A DNA stretch of 32,000 nucleotides from an uncultured archaeon (lineage in GTDB: Archaea; Iainarchaeota; Iainarchaeia; Iainarchaeales; JAAZKV01), in NCBI GenBank assembly GCA_964551375.1, contig CAZKBG010000001.1, positions 867,329 through 899,328 on the forward strand. The letters are read 5' to 3'. This document shows positions 1-6,568 of the stretch, in pieces (position 1 is the first letter of the stretch; each line of letters begins with the position of its first letter). Below the pieces are notes generated by a model, which did not search any database, had not been told where the DNA came from, and saw only the letters and a program-made list of their open reading frames with translations. A program made the position numbers and the translations under genes.

Positions 1-1547
1 TATTCCTCCATCAGCTTATTTTTTTCCACTGCTCTTGTAACCACGTCTCTGTCCTTATAGTATTGCGCGATTACTTTTCCAACAGAATTAAGGTCATTAA
101 TATTTTTATCAACCATCCATTCAAGGATTTTCTGCTTCTCTTGCAGTTCGTCAAGCACTTCATTTTTGCTTAATCCAGTGTGAAGGGATAATTCATCAAA
201 TAATCTTGTGCTCTCGTTGTGTCTTGCAATTTTATCGTCCCCGCTTCTCCACCTGTAAAGCACATTTGCTCTAACACTTTCTTCTCCAGTTCCGTGCTTT
301 TCTAAAATAAATTCTCCGACCTGAAGAACTCTTCTAACGCCAAGTCTTCTGTTTCTAAACATTACAACATTTAAGTGAACAGTGTCAAGCATGCTCTGGG
401 GAATATTGATTGGAGGATTTGTTAATCTCCTGATTGTTTCATCAGCAGTATTTGCGTGAAGAGTGGAATAAACACTGTGCCCAGTGTGCATTGCTTCAAA
501 CATTACTTCCGCTTCTTTTCTTCTTCTAATTTCCCCAACAATTATACGGTCAGGTCTCATTCTTAATGAATTCACAAGAAGATCAAGCATTGAAATTTTT
601 CCCTTCCCTTCAGGATTAGCTTCCCTTGTAGTCATTGGCACATAGTGCATGAATTCAGGAGGGCGAAGTTCCCTTGTGTCTTCAATACTTAAAACACGAT
701 GATTCGGCTGAATAAACGGCAGGCACACACCAAGAATGGTTGTTTTTCCTGAAGCTGTTCCTCCGGAGAAGATAATATTTAATTCATATTCCATTGCTTC
801 CCACAAAAGCGCCATTACTTCAGAAGAAACTGTATTGCTTCGAATTAAGTCAGTCACAGTCCAAGGGTCTCTTCTAAATCTTCTAATAGTAAGAGTGTTA
901 CCGTCATTTGAAATAGGGAAAAGAGTTGCATTAACACGATCTCCAGTAGTCAAGTGCGCATCAAGAAGAGGCTCAAGAGTTGTAATCTGCTTTCCAACTC
1001 TTCTTGCAATAATACTGCCGTAATTATGAATATCATCTTCTGAGCCAAGGTAAATATTAGTCTTTAACCAGCCGTACTTTTTATGATAAACCCAAACAGG
1101 GTCCTTGCTTTTATTTACGACAATTTCTTCTAAATTCGCATCGGCAAGAATCATTTCCATTTTTCCCAAACCAAGCATTTCCTGCAAAAGAAAACCTATA
1201 AGCGAATTTTTTGTTTCCTTAGTCGCAGTAGGAAGCTCAACTGAAATAATAGAATCAGCTCTTTTTCTGAACCTGTCCTTTAAAGCGTCAACAAAATGCT
1301 GGTCGATTAAAGAATCCGCCTTGATTGAAGCCTCTGAAATTATTGAATTCTTTATTTCCCTCATCAAAGCATGAGTTCCTTCCCCAAAATCAGGAAGGCT
1401 CAAAAAGTACTCATTTACATAAGCTTTTTTTCTTTCAACAATCCTTACATCAGCGCTTACTTCATCAGCAGTTACTTTATAGAGCTCAACTAAGTTAAAC
1501 TCATCAAGCATCTTGTCCGATGACCACTTTCCCCTTACTTCAACCAT
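1..1547 (-). CDS. Type IV pilus/archaellum-type assembly ATPase (GspE/FlaI/PilB-VirB11 superfamily); C-terminal end runs off the window
   Basis: Absent from the supplied ORF track because it is open to the window edge. Hand translation of the minus strand from the ATG at 1545-1547 (GGTGA 4 nt upstream) stays open to nt 1 (>515 codons). Motifs read directly: Walker A GGTASGKTT (738-764), LSIEDTREL, RMRPDRIIVGEIR (Walker B/Asp box), AMHTGHSVYSTLHA (His box). Last residues read: AVEKNKLMEE. Confidence 0.88.
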   Translation of the reverse strand, partial: MVEVRGKWSSDKMLDEFNLVELYKVTADEVSADVRIVERKKAYVNEYFLSLPDFGEGTHALMREIKNSIISEASIKADSLIDQHFVDALKDRFRKRADSIISVELPTATKETKNSLIGFLLQEMLGLGKMEMILADANLEEIVVNKSKDPVWVYHKKYGWLKTNIYLGSEDDIHNYGSIIARRVGKQITTLEPLLDAHLTTGDRVNATLFPISNDGNTLTIRRFRRDPWTVTDLIRSNTVSSEVMALLWEAMEYELNIIFSGGTASGKTTILGVCLPFIQPNHRVLSIEDTRELRPPEFMHYVPMTTREANPEGKGKISMLDLLVNSLRMRPDRIIVGEIRRRKEAEVMFEAMHTGHSVYSTLHANTADETIRRLTNPPINIPQSMLDTVHLNVVMFRNRRLGVRRVLQVGEFILEKHGTGEESVRANVLYRWRSGDDKIARHNESTRLFDELSLHTGLSKNEVLDELQEKQKILEWMVDKNINDLNSVGKVIAQYYKDRDVVTRAVEKNKLMEE

Positions 1548-1575
1548 TGTTTCACCAATATTATCCAAAATTAAA

Positions 1576-1971
1576 TTACTTTGCCATATCTTCGTTTAAA
1601 TCCTCATCGCTTAACTGTTCGCCCCTTCTAATCATTTCCCTTCTTTTTTTTGCTTTCTCAAACTCAGCGCTTATTAACTTAGGAGAGCCGAAAAGAGGGT
1701 ACTCAATTCTAACCGAGCCAGCTTTTTCAAGAGTCAAATAACATTCCCTCAACTTTGAGCCGTCCATTTTCAAATCCTTTCTCAACTTGCCTGCATTAAT
1801 AATTCCCGCTTCATTAATTGCCCGAAGAACCTTGTCAAAATCCGTTATAACGCATGGATTTTTCAAGTCAGTTTCGCAAAGAGTATTTTTTTTGCGCTTA
1901 TCCGGAGCGGTAATCATTACAGGCTTTGAAATATCCTCGATATTTTCATCATCTTTTTCTTTTTTAGTCAT
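1576..1971 (-). CDS. Small hypothetical protein, possible winged-helix fold, directly upstream of the pilus ATPase
   Basis: The track ORF 1576..1983 begins at TTG; the first ATG is at 1971 (MTKKEKDD...). Charged Lys/Glu/Asp-rich termini flank a ~60-aa core (ITDFDKVLRAINEAGIINAGKLRKDLKMDGSKLRECYLTLEKAGSVRIEY). No family recognised. Its stop lies 28 nt before the ATPase ATG. Confidence 0.5.
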   Translation of the reverse strand: MTKKEKDDENIEDISKPVMITAPDKRKKNTLCETDLKNPCVITDFDKVLRAINEAGIINAGKLRKDLKMDGSKLRECYLTLEKAGSVRIEYPLFGSPKLISAEFEKAKKRREMIRRGEQLSDEDLNEDMAK

Positions 1972-1996
1972 TTTAATCAGCAAATAAAGATGCTTT

Positions 1997-5301: not shown

Positions 5302-5782
5302 CCGCAAAACCTCCCTTATACACCACAGTTCTTTTTACGCTGTATACAAAAACATCTGGATCAAGCGCTTTTCCAATTGAAATATTATCCGCAGGATTCT
5401 CGGCTAAAATATCCATCTTAAAATCATAACTTCCAAGCCCAAGAATATACTTTGCATTATTATAATCCATTGAAGCAAAATAGGCAACTTTTGAATCGCT
5501 CAAAATAAGCGGCTTGTCTGCGAGTCCGATTAATTCAACGTTTGAATTAGTCCAGTTGATTGGATATCCTTCAGTTTTTACAAGGCTGTCAAGCGCGGAT
5601 TCGGATTTTAGCTGAAGCTCGGAAAAATAAAAATTATTCTCCGCTTCTTCAATGTTTTGAATCCAAACCCCCCTAAGAGAAACGAAAACAAGAACAAAAA
5701 TAACCGCTGACACAAGCACATCAATGCTTGAAACCTGCCCGCGAATGCGATTTCTTTTATTTATTAAAAAACTCATAATCAT
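5273..5782 (-). CDS. Pilin-like protein with class III signal peptide (about 169 aa)
   Basis: Start candidates are GTG 5785, ATG 5782 and ATG 5776. ATG 5782 shares one nt with the TGA stop of the upstream pilin gene (TGATG). N-terminus ...INKRNRIRG/QVSSIDVLVSAVIFVLVFVSL. It overlaps the vWA gene start by 29 nt. Confidence 0.7.
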   Translation of the reverse strand: MIMSFLINKRNRIRGQVSSIDVLVSAVIFVLVFVSLRGVWIQNIEEAENNFYFSELQLKSESALDSLVKTEGYPINWTNSNVELIGLADKPLILSDSKVAYFASMDYNNAKYILGLGSYDFKMDILAENPADNISIGKALDPDVFVYSVKRTVVYKGGFADVSFKVFSK

Positions 5783-6162
5783 CACGAAGAAATAATTTCA
5801 ATAATCCCATTATTGTTTGTTATTGTGAGCGTGGAGGGCGAGAGAGAGTAAGGATTTGAAATCGCAAGAAACCTGCAGTAATCTTCCCCAATTTTAACGG
5901 ACTTTTCCAAAGGAATTATTTGGGCATTTTCAGATAAATTATAATTAATTGAAGTTCCGTCACCTTCAGTGTAAGCTTTGCTGATTGCAAAAGCAAGCCT
6001 TAAGCATTCGCCTTTTTTTATATAAGTGCTTGAAATAGTGTCATTTGCGCCGCTGATGCTGTAATTTTGAAGAAAAACTATCATCAAAAAAACAAATACT
6101 ATCACTATTGCAAGAAGAGTCTCGACAGAAACCTGCCCTTTTGAAAAAATTTTATATTTCAC
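5782..6162 (-). CDS. Archaeal type IV pilin (class III signal peptide), 126 aa
   Basis: GTG at 6162 is the only start that keeps the signal peptide. An SD-like GTGAT lies 5 nt upstream, and the gene overlaps the upstream gene by 11 nt. N-terminus MKYKIFSKG/QVSVETLLAIVIVFVFLMIVF shows the KGQ-x-S-x-E pattern of archaeal prepilins. Confidence 0.75.
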   Translation of the reverse strand: MKYKIFSKGQVSVETLLAIVIVFVFLMIVFLQNYSISGANDTISSTYIKKGECLRLAFAISKAYTEGDGTSINYNLSENAQIIPLEKSVKIGEDYCRFLAISNPYSLSPSTLTITNNNGIIEIISS

Positions 6163-6568
6163 TTAAAATCACTGTTCCATTATTGTTGGAAACAAGAATA
6201 TCATGCGGGCCGTATGTAATTGGGAGAGTGCCGCTAATGTTAGTATCCATTTCCTCAAGCGATTCGCTTGAAGAGCCGAAAAGGCTTGTAGTTATTCTAA
6301 GAGCGCGTCCTGATGCGTTAAAAGACTCAACATTATTTGGGATAGTAATTTTAACAATAAACGCATTTCCGCTTCCAAGCGCATAAGCCTTATTCACAGC
6401 CTCTTTAATTTCCTTCATAGTTTCTTTTGCCTGCGAAGACGCCACAGTATCCTGATACTGAATGAAGGCATAGCCTGTCAACCCCGCGATTATTAAAAGA
6501 CAGATTCCCACAAGCATCAAATATTCTGTTGCCACCTGCCCTTTTGATTTTTTGAATAAAAAATTCAT
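6152..6568 (-). CDS. Archaeal type IV pilin (class III signal peptide), 138 aa; first gene of operon, major-pilin candidate
   Basis: ATG at 6568. N-terminus MNFLFKKSKG/QVATEYLMLVGICLLIIAGL shows the KGQ...E-Y-L motif typical of euryarchaeal/DPANN pilins. Confidence 0.8.
   Translation of the reverse strand: MNFLFKKSKGQVATEYLMLVGICLLIIAGLTGYAFIQYQDTVASSQAKETMKEIKEAVNKAYALGSGNAFIVKITIPNNVESFNASGRALRITTSLFGSSSESLEEMDTNISGTLPITYGPHDILVSNNNGTVILSEI

What the first reader, a model, noticed from the sequence alone, without database searches (positions are those of the whole stretch)
1..6568. Compact type IV pilus-like operon: five prepilin-like genes, a small wHTH-like gene and a FlaI/PilB ATPase
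Seven co-directional minus-strand genes are packed with 11-nt, 1-nt and 29-nt overlaps and a 3-nt gap. A 70-nt spacer with a hairpin and a TATA box then precedes the small gene and the ATPase. Five products start with a basic n-region, then Gly/Ala, then ~20 hydrophobic residues: KG/QVATEYLMLV, KG/QVSVETLLAIV, RG/QVSSIDVLVS, KA/FIFSLESLIAL and RG/LLFTIMTLF. This is the class III (prepilin) signal recognised by archaeal PibD/EppA-type peptidases. The composition is one or two short major-pilin candidates plus three progressively larger pilin-like proteins, one carrying vWA. That resembles a bacterial minor-pilin/PilY1 tip complex more than the characterised archaeal pili I know of (Aap, Ups, Epd, Haloferax PilA). 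In a DPANN-type episymbiont such a filament is an obvious host-attachment candidate. The ATPase is invisible in the supplied ORF track because it runs off the window.
Basis: partly seen in the sequence, partly recalled or inferred. Interest (0 to 1): 0.65.

Follow-up and report, generated by a model that had tools for sequence, protein, structure and literature searches.

The report
Archaeal adhesive pilus gene cluster
This is a real, conserved gene cluster for a type IV adhesive pilus in a tiny DPANN archaeon (Candidatus Iainarchaeum): five helper subunits, one carrying a metal-dependent sticky domain, a small motor-partner protein and the motor ATPase. It is a known kind of system, and this scan has already met it on other DNA.

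Summary
Seven co-directional minus-strand genes lie at window 1-6568, and five products carry class III (prepilin) N-termini.

- The ATPase is complete (522 aa). Only its stop codon straddles the window edge.
- Just left of the window lie two T2SSF platform genes and two tandem pilin genes with a very conserved QSALEYLMTYGWAL N-terminus. These, not P1/P2, are the likely major pilins.
- The genome has two A24 prepilin peptidases and no archaellin.

The order P1-P2-P3-P4-P5-S-ATPase-TadC-TadC recurs across Iainarchaeota and partly in Aenigmatarchaeota and Woesearchaeota.

P4 is a modular pilin. It has a pilin helix and a vWA domain with an intact MIDAS site, interrupted by a variable insert that is a beta-propeller or a lectin in relatives. 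Its model matches pilus tip adhesins (SpaC, Mfa5, S. sanguinis PilB).

P5 never has the acidic residue that P1-P4 always carry.

The small gene encodes a winged-helix domain. In a paralogous locus this domain is fused to the ATPase.

Verdict: a new member of the known archaeal type IV filament systems. Similar DPANN loci were reported by Hamm et al. 2024, and this scan found the kind before in other genomes. Host attachment is inferred, not shown.

The parts
6152..6568 (-). P1, 138-aa pilin-like protein, KG|QVATEYLMLV (minor pilin)
   Evidence: ORF. Weak Pfam hits: DUF7266 (E 0.0022) and Class_IIIsignal (E 0.018). 9 of 25 orthologues hit PF04021. Q+1 and E+5 are invariant. Homologous to P2 by hhalign (97%).
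5782..6162 (-). P2, 126-aa pilin-like protein, KG|QVSVETLL (minor pilin, paralogue of P1)
   Evidence: ORF. E+5 and two Cys are invariant and Q+1 is present in at least 90% of 17 orthologues. hhalign to P1: E 3.6e-11.
5273..5785 (-). P3, 167-170-aa pilin-like protein, RG|QVSSIDVLVS (minor pilin)
   Evidence: ORF. Q+1 and D+6 are invariant in 27 orthologues. Paralogues sit in the same slot in loci A and B of the genome.
3025..5307 (-). P4, 758-760-aa modular pilin-adhesin, KA|FIFSLESLIAL. It has an N-terminal pilin helix and head, and a vWA domain with MIDAS residues (D238, S240, S242, T429, D460). The vWA domain is split by an insert of about 120 aa (residues 248-364). Two C-terminal beta-sandwich domains follow.
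   Evidence: Pfam VWA 8e-22, starting at profile position 15. All 29 of 29 orthologues have VWA; 13 have LVIVD repeats and 2 have ConA-like lectin domains. These modules lie between the DxSGS motif and the rest of the vWA domain. AlphaFold pLDDT 82. Foldseek: SpaC 8e-16, Mfa5 3e-13, PitA 6e-13, S. sanguinis PilB 5e-10.
2053..3021 (-). P5, 322-aa pilin-like protein, RG|LLFTIMTLF, with no acidic residue near the N-terminus (candidate cap subunit)
   Evidence: ORF. AlphaFold pLDDT 91, pTM 0.82, helix 3-56 plus a beta-rich head. No PDB fold match. 0 of 31 orthologues have D/E at +1 to +10. The family is found in 103 of 201 sampled genomes of the phylum.
1984..2052 (-). Intergenic spacer: oligo-T runs, hairpin 2033-2019 and a TATA-like box 2008-1998. 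Probably a partial terminator plus an internal promoter for the S-ATPase-platform genes.
   Evidence: Sequence read. The function is inferred from archaeal promoter and terminator rules and was not tested.
1576..1983 (-). S, 131-135-aa cytoplasmic protein whose residues about 46-107 form a winged-helix domain ending in YPxFGxP. It is the shortest member of a large family encoded just upstream of the ATPase.
   Evidence: No Pfam hit of its own. Alignment. Orthologues give weak TrmB, HTH_24 and HVO_A0114 hits. The domain profile matches the LrpA wHTH at 4e-6. An S homologue is immediately upstream of the ATPase in 51 of 74 loci. The domain is fused to the ATPase in paralogous locus A. 3125 clusters match in the 1.84-billion-protein library.
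1..1568 (-). Archaeal type IV filament assembly ATPase, 522 aa and complete (stop codon at window positions 0-2)
   Evidence: T2SSE 5e-35 and PilB3_C 2.4e-5. NCBIfam FlaI 293 bits, below the 550 cut-off, and TadA 199 bits. PDB: afGspE 235 bits > FlaI 188 > CpaF 162 > VirB11 75 > PilT 51. Full ORF.

Best explanation
The region is the pilin-cassette and motor half of an archaeal type IV filament (pilus) locus in a Candidatus Iainarchaeum (DPANN) genome.

Proposed mechanism:
1. One of the genome's two A24 prepilin peptidases cuts P1-P5 after the conserved Gly/Ala.
2. The 522-aa ATPase powers assembly, together with the two half-size TadC-like platform proteins encoded directly downstream.
3. The filament body is made of the highly conserved QSALEYLMTYGWAL pilins, encoded in tandem just beyond the platform genes.
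4. P1-P5 are low-abundance minor pilins that prime assembly and end up at the tip.
5. P5 is the only one that never carries the acidic +5/+6 residue, so it may be the capping subunit.
6. P4 presents a vWA/MIDAS adhesin whose ligand-side insert varies between relatives.
7. S is a cytoplasmic winged-helix protein that acts with, or on, the ATPase.

Shown here: the genes, domains, conserved signal features, synteny, presence of the peptidases, the S-ATPase fusion, and the structural likeness of P4 to pilus tip adhesins.

Inferred: cleavage, filament formation, tip location, the cap role of P5, what P4 binds, and whether S regulates transcription or the motor.
For: - Core machinery. Two T2SSF genes lie right after it. 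There are two Peptidase_A24 genes. No archaellin passes the cut-off.
- Class III signals. G/A at -1, Q+1, E+5 or D/E+6 are conserved across orthologues. PF04021 hits 9 of 25 P1 orthologues. The P4 and P5 models start with long N-terminal helices.
- Conserved order. P3+P4+P5 lie upstream in 26 of 52 loci and S is adjacent in 51 of 74.
- Paralogy. Loci A, B and D in the same genome show the same N-terminal motif series. Loci A and B are also paralogous in the ATPase, platform and KaiC-like genes.
- Major pilin. A Q(S/A)ALEYLMTYGWAL pilin follows the platform genes in 40 of 59 loci across phyla.
- P4. vWA with intact MIDAS in 29 of 29 orthologues. Best structural matches are the pilus tip adhesins SpaC, Mfa5 and PitA and the S. 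sanguinis PilB modular pilin.
- Adhesin modules differ between paralogous loci: vWA here, ConA-like lectin domains in loci B and D.
- S. wHTH profile match. Fusion to the ATPase is conserved in 20 of 21 genomes of the genus and in other families.
- Literature. Archaeal T4P loci with five or more minor pilins and PilY-like adhesins are described in PMC4858521. 'System 1' with two platform genes, including in Nanobdellati, is in PMC13705601. DPANN T4P loci are in PMC11291902.
Against: - There are no expression, proteomic or imaging data.
- Pfam does not recognise P2, P3 or P5 at all, and the window's own P1 matches PF04021 below its cut-off.
- P5 has no structural relative in the PDB, so the GspK-like cap idea rests only on the missing acidic residue.
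- This locus type is found in only 3 of 18 other genomes of the same genus, so it is accessory there.
- Iainarchaeota have no cultured member that I know of, so a host is hypothetical.
Confidence: 0.75

Rival explanations
1. P1 and/or P2 are the major pilins of this machine. The filament would then be built from genes inside the window, and the neighbouring QSALEYL pilins would belong to something else.
For: P1 and P2 are short (138 and 126 aa), have canonical Q+1/E+5 signals and are the first genes of the operon. In a few relatives the pilin downstream of the platform is detectably similar to P1 (L037, L044, L051, L073).
Against: The QSALEYLMTYGWAL pilin follows the platform genes in 40 of 59 loci. 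Its mature N-terminus is nearly identical across phyla, as expected for a filament-core subunit. The N-termini of P1 and P2 are much more variable. In paralogous loci A and B the P1-type protein is enlarged to 589-621 aa with a lectin-like module, which does not fit a major subunit. Archaeal major pilins are typically stand-alone or tandem genes outside the operon (PMC4858521).
Confidence: 0.1
2. The machine does not make a long pilus. It makes a short pseudopilus or bindosome-like platform that displays or releases the many other class III-signal surface proteins of this genome.
For: The genome encodes 29 PF04021 matches and about 58 pattern matches. Many are 400-1000-aa proteins with near-identical QGTIEYLVII N-termini. 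Functionalised T4F machineries were proposed by Sivabalasarma and Albers 2026 (abstract). The ATPase gives a weak BasE (bindosome) NCBIfam hit of 140 bits against a cut-off of 1000.
Against: The QGTIEYL proteins are scattered and are not linked to this locus. This locus has its own dedicated, conserved pilin set and a tip-adhesin-like P4. Other ATPase/platform pairs in the genome (loci D and F) could serve that role.
Confidence: 0.12
3. S is an ordinary DNA-binding transcription factor that autoregulates the operon, not a partner of the ATPase.
For: Its conserved domain matches Lrp/AsnC, TrmB, ArsR and MarR-type wHTH DNA-binding domains. It follows an apparent internal promoter. Makarova et al. 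2016 list many unrelated transcription regulators in T4P loci.
Against: The same domain is fused in frame to the N-terminus of the paralogous ATPase. That fusion is conserved in 20 of 21 genomes of the genus and in other families. The gene sits immediately upstream of the ATPase in 51 of 74 loci. Its N-terminal parts vary widely: CBS pairs, or K/E-rich stretches of hundreds of residues that look coiled-coil by eye. That variety is unusual for a simple repressor. The two roles are not mutually exclusive.
Confidence: 0.3
4. The five N-termini are ordinary Sec signals or membrane anchors, and the proteins are unrelated surface proteins that merely neighbour a secretion ATPase.
For: Pfam finds no pilin family in P2, P3 or P5. 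A basic stretch followed by a hydrophobic stretch is common.
Against: The positions around the cleavage site (G/A-1, Q+1, E+5 or D/E+6) are conserved or invariant across distant orthologues, which Sec signals do not show. The order and linkage to ATPase and platform are conserved across phyla. The models of P4 and P5 have helices of about 45-55 residues. Four ordered sets with the same motif series exist in one genome.
Confidence: 0.03

Closest known systems
Archaeal type IV filament 'System 1' / Epd pilus of Methanococcus maripaludis (Makarova clade 1; PMC4858521, PMC13705601)
   Same: ATPase followed by two separate platform genes. At least five minor pilin-like class III proteins plus a large adhesin-like protein. 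The major pilin is encoded apart from the minor-pilin operon. System 1 is reported in Nanobdellati (DPANN).
   Different: The ATPase looks closer to the A. fulgidus GspE / H. volcanii PilB3 type, which I take to be Makarova's clade 2; that assignment was not checked. The candidate major pilins are 145-147 aa, not the roughly 70-aa Epd type. The adhesin carries vWA, not DUF2341. A KaiC-like pair is linked, which Makarova associates with clade 2. No arCOG or MacSyFinder assignment could be made here.
Conserved type IV pilus loci of DPANN archaea (Hamm et al. 2024, Nat Commun, PMC11291902)
   Same: CpaF-like ATPase, TadC and pilin genes, plus a cytoplasmic-looking accessory protein in conserved DPANN loci. 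Several products were detected by proteomics in Ca. Nanohaloarchaeum antarcticus. A role in host interaction was proposed.
   Different: Those loci were described for cluster 2 DPANN and Undinarchaeota, whereas this one is from Iainarchaeota. That paper's main text has no occurrence of 'pilin' or 'vWA', so it does not discuss the five ordered pilins or the vWA pilin. Long S homologues are K/E-rich and look coiled-coil by eye, so they may be the paper's 'coiled-coil proteins'. This was not tested.
Streptococcus sanguinis PilB, a bimodular minor pilin with a vWA module (PDB 7b7p; PMC8179133)
   Same: A class III signal and pilin module joined to a vWA domain with a functional-looking MIDAS flanked by extra 'arms'. 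Foldseek match 5e-10. Sister loci carry ConA-like lectin pilins, like S. sanguinis PilC.
   Different: PilB is bacterial. P4 is about twice as large, has the extra module inserted inside the vWA fold and has two further beta-sandwich domains. There is no sequence relationship outside the vWA domain. Binding was not tested.
Bacterial minor-pilin/PilY1 (T4aP) and GspH-I-J-K (T2SS) priming/tip complexes; TadE/F/G of Tad pili
   Same: A fixed set of four or five minor pilins encoded together. One large vWA-bearing adhesin (PilY1, TadG). One subunit lacks the conserved acidic residue (GspK-type), as P5 does. Tad pili also have a split platform (TadB/TadC). The statements about PilY1, TadG, GspK and TadB/TadC rest on my own knowledge.
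   Different: No sequence or fold homology was detected: P5 has no PDB match and no TadE_N or GspK families appear in Pfam. PilY1 is not itself a pilin, whereas P4 is. The propeller of P4 relatives is inserted in the vWA domain, not C-terminal.

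Membership tests
Type IV filament (T4F/TFF) superfamily system | Secretion ATPase of the GspE/FlaI/TadA family | tested here: met
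   PF00437 5e-35. NCBIfam FlaI 3e-87 and TadA 1e-58. PDB: afGspE, FlaI, CpaF.
Type IV filament (T4F/TFF) superfamily system | Polytopic platform protein with T2SSF domain(s) | tested here: met
   Two genes of 305 and 337 aa directly downstream of the ATPase, each with one PF00482 domain.
Type IV filament (T4F/TFF) superfamily system | Pilins with a class III signal peptide | tested here: met
   Pattern plus conservation of -1, +1 and +5/+6. PF04021 hits 9 of 25 P1 orthologues. Long N-terminal helices in the P4 and P5 models. The window's own P1 is below the Pfam cut-off.
Type IV filament (T4F/TFF) superfamily system | A24 prepilin peptidase in the genome | tested here: met
   Two genes: a 370-aa one with Arc_PepC domains, inside locus D, and a 269-aa one. 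Which of them cuts P1-P5 is unknown.
Archaeal System 1 / Epd-like pilus | Platform encoded by two genes | tested here: met
   Criterion from PMC13705601.
Archaeal System 1 / Epd-like pilus | ATPase belongs to Makarova clade 1 | tested here: inconclusive
   No reference tree could be built. The best solved relative is A. fulgidus GspE, and there is a near-threshold PilB3_C hit. I read both as clade 2, but did not check that assignment. Makarova notes that clade 2 loci also often have two tadC genes.
Archaeal System 1 / Epd-like pilus | Short (~70 aa) Epd-type major pilin without a globular domain | tested here: not met
   The pilins linked to this locus are 145 and 147 aa. Pilins of 61-102 aa exist only in the separate locus D.
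Modular type IV pilin with a vWA module (PilB-like) | N-terminal class III signal and pilin helix, followed by a vWA fold with a complete MIDAS | tested here: met
   KA|FIFSLE. Helix 18-63. VWA 8e-22. D238, S240, S242, T429 and D460 are at least 90% conserved. Foldseek to PilB 5e-10.
Modular type IV pilin with a vWA module (PilB-like) | Incorporation into the filament and metal-dependent ligand binding | not testable with these tools
   Needs purified filaments and binding assays.
Bacterial Tad pilus (TadE/F/G pseudopilins) | TadE/TadG-type N-terminal domain in the pilin-like proteins | tested here: not met
   No TadE_N or TadG-type family appears among the Pfam hits for any of the five proteins at E up to 1.
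Archaellum | Archaellin (PF01917) genes and a FlaI passing the equivalog cut-off | tested here: not met
   The best archaellin hit is 17 bits against a cut-off of 29.5. The FlaI model scores 293 against a cut-off of 550.
Winged helix-turn-helix domain (Lrp/AsnC-TrmB-like) for S | Sequence-profile similarity to solved wHTH domains | tested here: met
   Family profile against PDB: LrpA 4e-6, then TFE, Lrp/AsnC and ArsR. Weak Pfam TrmB, HTH_24 and HVO_A0114 hits in orthologues. No structure was predicted, and DNA binding was not tested.

The most novel reading that the evidence does not exclude
P1-P5 would be an archaeal counterpart of the bacterial minor-pilin priming/tip complex, with three features. 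There is a fixed order of five subunits. The acid-less P5 is the cap. P4 is a pilin that carries a vWA/MIDAS adhesin with a swappable ligand module inserted next to the metal site. In addition, the motor would be controlled by a dedicated winged-helix adaptor (S) that is a separate gene here and an N-terminal ATPase domain in sister loci. If true, tip-complex-primed assembly and a new class of ATPase adaptor would be general features of DPANN pili, and each of the paralogous loci would target a different ligand.
Probability: 0.35. Interest if true: 0.6.

Novelty: new member of a known kind. Interest (0 to 1): 0.35.

Why it matters
DPANN archaea are tiny, and the cultivated ones depend on contact with other cells. 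How they attach is largely unknown.

This locus gives a concrete, conserved candidate: a pilus whose tip subunit carries a metal-dependent adhesion domain with a variable ligand-side insert. Three sister sets of pilin-like genes in the same 1.09-Mb genome follow the same motif series, and two of them carry lectin modules instead.

It also points to two untested components: the acid-less P5 family and the winged-helix S family. The S family has more than 3000 sequence clusters, no Pfam family was detected for it here, and it is fused to the motor ATPase in paralogues.

The system as a whole is of a known kind, so the value lies in annotation and in testable hypotheses, not in surprise.

Tried and rejected
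- Pfam and NCBIfam on P2, P3, P5 and S gave nothing usable.
- A Foldseek search of the confident P5 model found no relative (best E 0.05). A GspK-like fold could therefore not be supported.
- I could not place the ATPase in Makarova's clades or the MacSyFinder subsystems.
- The archaellum reading was rejected: there are no archaellins.
- The Tad reading was rejected at family level: no TadE/G domains.
- A literature search for DUF7266/7287/7289, the weak halobacterial Pfam hits of P1 and P3 relatives, found no paper.
- Only two structure jobs were allowed and they went to P4 and P5. P1-P3 and S therefore have no model.

Full report
**Observation.**
The window lies at C1:867329-899328 of a 1.09-Mb, 10-contig, 93%-complete genome. 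They are P1 (6152-6568), P2 (5782-6162), P3 (5273-5785), P4 (3025-5307), P5 (2053-3021), the small gene S (1576-1983) and the ATPase (3-1568).

With ATG starts, the junctions are the stated 11-nt, 1-nt and 29-nt overlaps and the 3-nt gap. The 69-nt spacer after P5 holds T4/T5 runs, a 6-bp hairpin (2033-2019) and a TATA-like TTTATATAAAA (2008-1998). That box lies about 30 nt before ATG 1971, which is the start implied by the 131-aa database entry. A second TATA-like box lies about 25 nt before the P1 start.

One correction is needed. After fetching the flank, the ATPase is a complete 522-aa protein, and only its stop codon straddles the window edge.

**The machinery is complete.**
The ATPase has a T2SSE domain (5e-35) and a near-threshold PilB3_C domain. 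Its best NCBIfam model is FlaI, at 293 bits against a cut-off of 550, followed by TadA.

Among solved structures it is closest to A. fulgidus GspE (235 bits), then FlaI (188) and CpaF of Tad pili (162). VirB11 (75) and PilT (51) are far behind.

Directly downstream, left of the window, are two genes of 305 and 337 aa, each with one T2SSF domain. Beyond them lie:
- a CorA gene on the plus strand;
- two tandem 145/147-aa pilin genes starting KG|QSALEYLMTYGWAL;
- a KaiC-like ATPase gene with a degenerate partner gene.

The genome has two A24 prepilin peptidases. One is 370 aa with archaeal C-terminal domains; the other is 269 aa. No archaellin passes the cut-off.

**Are the five N-termini class III signals?**
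Pfam gives only weak hits for P1 and nothing for P2, P3 or P5. The case therefore rests on three lines of evidence.

- Conservation. From 80 related loci I built family alignments.
  - P1: Q+1 and E+5 are invariant.
  - P2: E+5 is invariant and Q+1 is present in at least 90%.
  - P3: Q+1 and D+6 are invariant.
  - P4: D/E at +6 in 24 of 24.
  - P5: G-1 is invariant, and there is no acidic residue at +1 to +10 in 0 of 31.
  - Nine of 25 P1 orthologues hit PF04021, and P1 and P2 are homologous over their whole length (hhalign 97%).
- Structure. The AlphaFold models begin with long helices followed by beta-rich heads, as pilins do. P5 has helix 3-56 (pLDDT 91, pTM 0.82). P4 has helix 18-63 (pLDDT 82).
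- Context. A pattern scan found four ordered sets with the same series of N-terminal motifs in this one genome: QVxxEYL, QVxxE, QxxSxD, FxFSx(E/D), then (L/F)(L/F)(F/V)T. Three of the four sets lie next to their own ATPase and platform genes.

Ordinary Sec signals do not show such residue-level conservation.

**Synteny and taxonomy.**
The closest relatives are MAGs named Candidatus Iainarchaeum, including the complete AR10 genome. More distant ones are Aenigmatarchaeota, Woesearchaeota and Micrarchaeota.

The order P1-P2-P3-P4-P5-(an optional ~375-aa protein)-S-ATPase-TadC-TadC is widespread. P3+P4+P5 lie co-directionally upstream in 26 of 52 loci with enough sequence. An S homologue is immediately upstream of the ATPase in 51 of 74.

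The P5 family is found in 103 of 201 sampled genomes of the phylum and in 43 of 58 high-quality ones. It is found in only 3 of 18 other genomes of the same genus, so this locus is accessory there.

Within the genome, loci A (about 420-431 kb) and B (about 458-469 kb) are paralogous throughout. ATPases are 45% and 52% identical, platform genes 30-39%, and the KaiC-like neighbours are also paralogous.

**Which gene is the major pilin?**
A pilin with the mature N-terminus Q(S/A)ALEYLMTYGWAL follows the platform genes in 40 of 59 loci. It is almost unchanged from Iainarchaeota to Aenigmatarchaeota. That is what a filament-core subunit should look like.

The N-termini of P1 and P2 are far more variable. 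In loci A and B the P1-type protein is a 589-621-aa protein, and the locus B one carries a lectin-like module. I therefore read P1-P5 as minor pilins and the tandem genes left of the window as the major pilins.

**P4.**
All 29 aligned orthologues have a vWA domain. The MIDAS residues D238, S240, S242, T429 and D460 are at least 90% conserved.

The Pfam match starts at profile position 15 because the fold is interrupted right after the DxSGS loop. The insert is about 120 aa here. In relatives it holds LVIVD beta-propeller repeats (13 of 29) or ConA-like lectin domains, and it reaches about 900 aa.

The model shows a helix, a pilin-like head, the vWA domain with a beta-rich insert, and two beta-sandwiches. 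Its best PDB matches are:
- SpaC of Lactobacillus rhamnosus (8e-16);
- Mfa5 (3e-13);
- PitA (6e-13);
- the S. sanguinis modular minor pilin PilB (5e-10).

Public annotation calls the family only 'VWA domain-containing protein'. The PilB paper describes the same design principle for bacteria and does not mention archaea. In the paralogous loci the P4 slot holds a short pilin of 92-146 aa, and the extra module sits on another subunit instead. Locus B has an SO2946-like/ConA-like module and locus D has Laminin_G_3.

**P5.**
The model is confident but has no structural relative in the PDB. Its one notable property is the complete absence of the acidic residue that P1-P4 always have. In bacterial systems this is the mark of the GspK-type tip subunit. 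That statement rests on my own knowledge of T2SS pseudopilins; the PilB paper also notes that GspK has been proposed to sit at the pseudopilus tip. The cap role is an inference.

**S.**
The window's protein is the shortest member of a family whose only conserved part is a C-terminal domain of about 62 aa: TDFDxxL...LExxGLxEIxYPAFGxP. A profile of this domain matches solved wHTH domains: LrpA at 4e-6, then TFE, Lrp/AsnC and ArsR. It also finds 3125 clusters in the 1.84-billion-protein library, almost always at the C-terminus.

The N-terminal parts vary widely. Aenigmatarchaeota have CBS pairs, and many Iainarchaeota have K/E-rich stretches of hundreds of residues that look coiled-coil by eye.

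An HMM of the domain also hits the N-terminal extension of the locus A ATPase (E 6e-5). That fused form is conserved in 20 of 21 genomes of the genus and in other families. Such a fusion argues that S works with the ATPase. A DNA-binding role is not excluded.

**Comparison with the literature.**
- Makarova et al. 2016 described archaeal T4P loci with two tadC genes, at least five minor pilins and PilY-like adhesins. They also described KaiC-family ATPases linked to clade 2 loci.
- Sivabalasarma and Albers 2026 define 'System 1' by two platform genes and report it in Nanobdellati.
- Hamm et al. 2024 reported two conserved T4P loci with coiled-coil proteins in cluster 2 DPANN.

This locus is therefore a member of a known kind. 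Three points go beyond what I found in those papers, although they are partly anticipated in earlier notes of this scan: the ordered five-pilin set with an acid-less last member, the vWA modular pilin with an insertion hot spot, and the S-ATPase fusion.

Membership in System 1 is not settled. The platform is split, but the ATPase looks closer to the afGspE/PilB3 type, and the linked pilins are not the short Epd type.

**Limits.**
Cleavage, filament formation, tip location, the ligand and any host are all inferred.

Noticed in passing
L019 8075-9998 (-), 6040-7074 (+), 4540-5870 (-) = C1:861868-867326, left of the window: The rest of the locus lies here: two half-size T2SSF platform genes, a CorA gene, two tandem QSALEYLMTYGWAL pilin genes (50% identical to each other), and a KaiC-like ATPase with a degenerate partner. 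Paralogues of the KaiC-like gene flank loci A and B as well.
   Followed up: partly
genome C1, e.g. 44557-47271, 66508-68409, 681135-684206, 741753-743111, 750503-752311: Many large proteins (400-1000 aa) start with almost identical class III-like N-termini (KG|QGTIEYLVIIAIVIVIALVVVGL). There are 29 PF04021 matches in a 1.09-Mb genome. They may be surface proteins displayed through a pilin-type anchor.
   Followed up: no
genome C1:420637-431133 (locus A), 457567-469046 (locus B), 633876-645280 (locus D): Three further type IV filament loci carry the same series of minor-pilin N-terminal motifs but different adhesin modules: ConA-like lectin domains in B and D. Locus D also holds the 370-aa A24 peptidase and three 61-102-aa pilins. 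Locus B is followed by two genes that look like response-regulator receivers; this was not tested.
   Followed up: partly
L041, L051, L053, L073: Contigs carrying this archaeal pilus locus are filed under bacterial or other MAG names (Falkowbacteria, Chloroflexota, Thaumarchaeota). These contigs are probably mis-binned.
   Followed up: no
Genome-search hits G031:C19:97052-98038, G177:C6:6807-7823, G190:C142:1124-2155, G192:C83:426-1442: In one family of the phylum (f13), P5 homologues in four genomes each contain a single in-frame TAA; in three of the four it is a second P5 copy. This could be a recurrent pseudogene, a split gene or read-through.
   Followed up: no
L023 7891-9984, L047 8353-10005, L031 6877-9753, L039 8659-9984: Long S homologues share a second short motif, (F/Y)(F/L)KR.I....(F/Y)..K..EY..KL.EL, upstream of the winged-helix domain. 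By eye it resembles a SHOCT-like helix pair. These K/E-rich proteins may be the 'coiled-coil proteins' of Hamm et al. 2024.
   Followed up: no
window 6670-6810 (+): A 46-aa ORF with a CxxC...HxC...C pattern (zinc-ribbon-like) lies divergently upstream of P1, inside the promoter region of the pilin operon.
   Followed up: no
L061 8354-9487, L032 7784-8977, L067 8220-9305 and others: Many relatives have an extra ~360-400-aa membrane-anchored or lipoprotein-like protein between P5 and S. It has no Pfam family and is absent from the window.
   Followed up: partly
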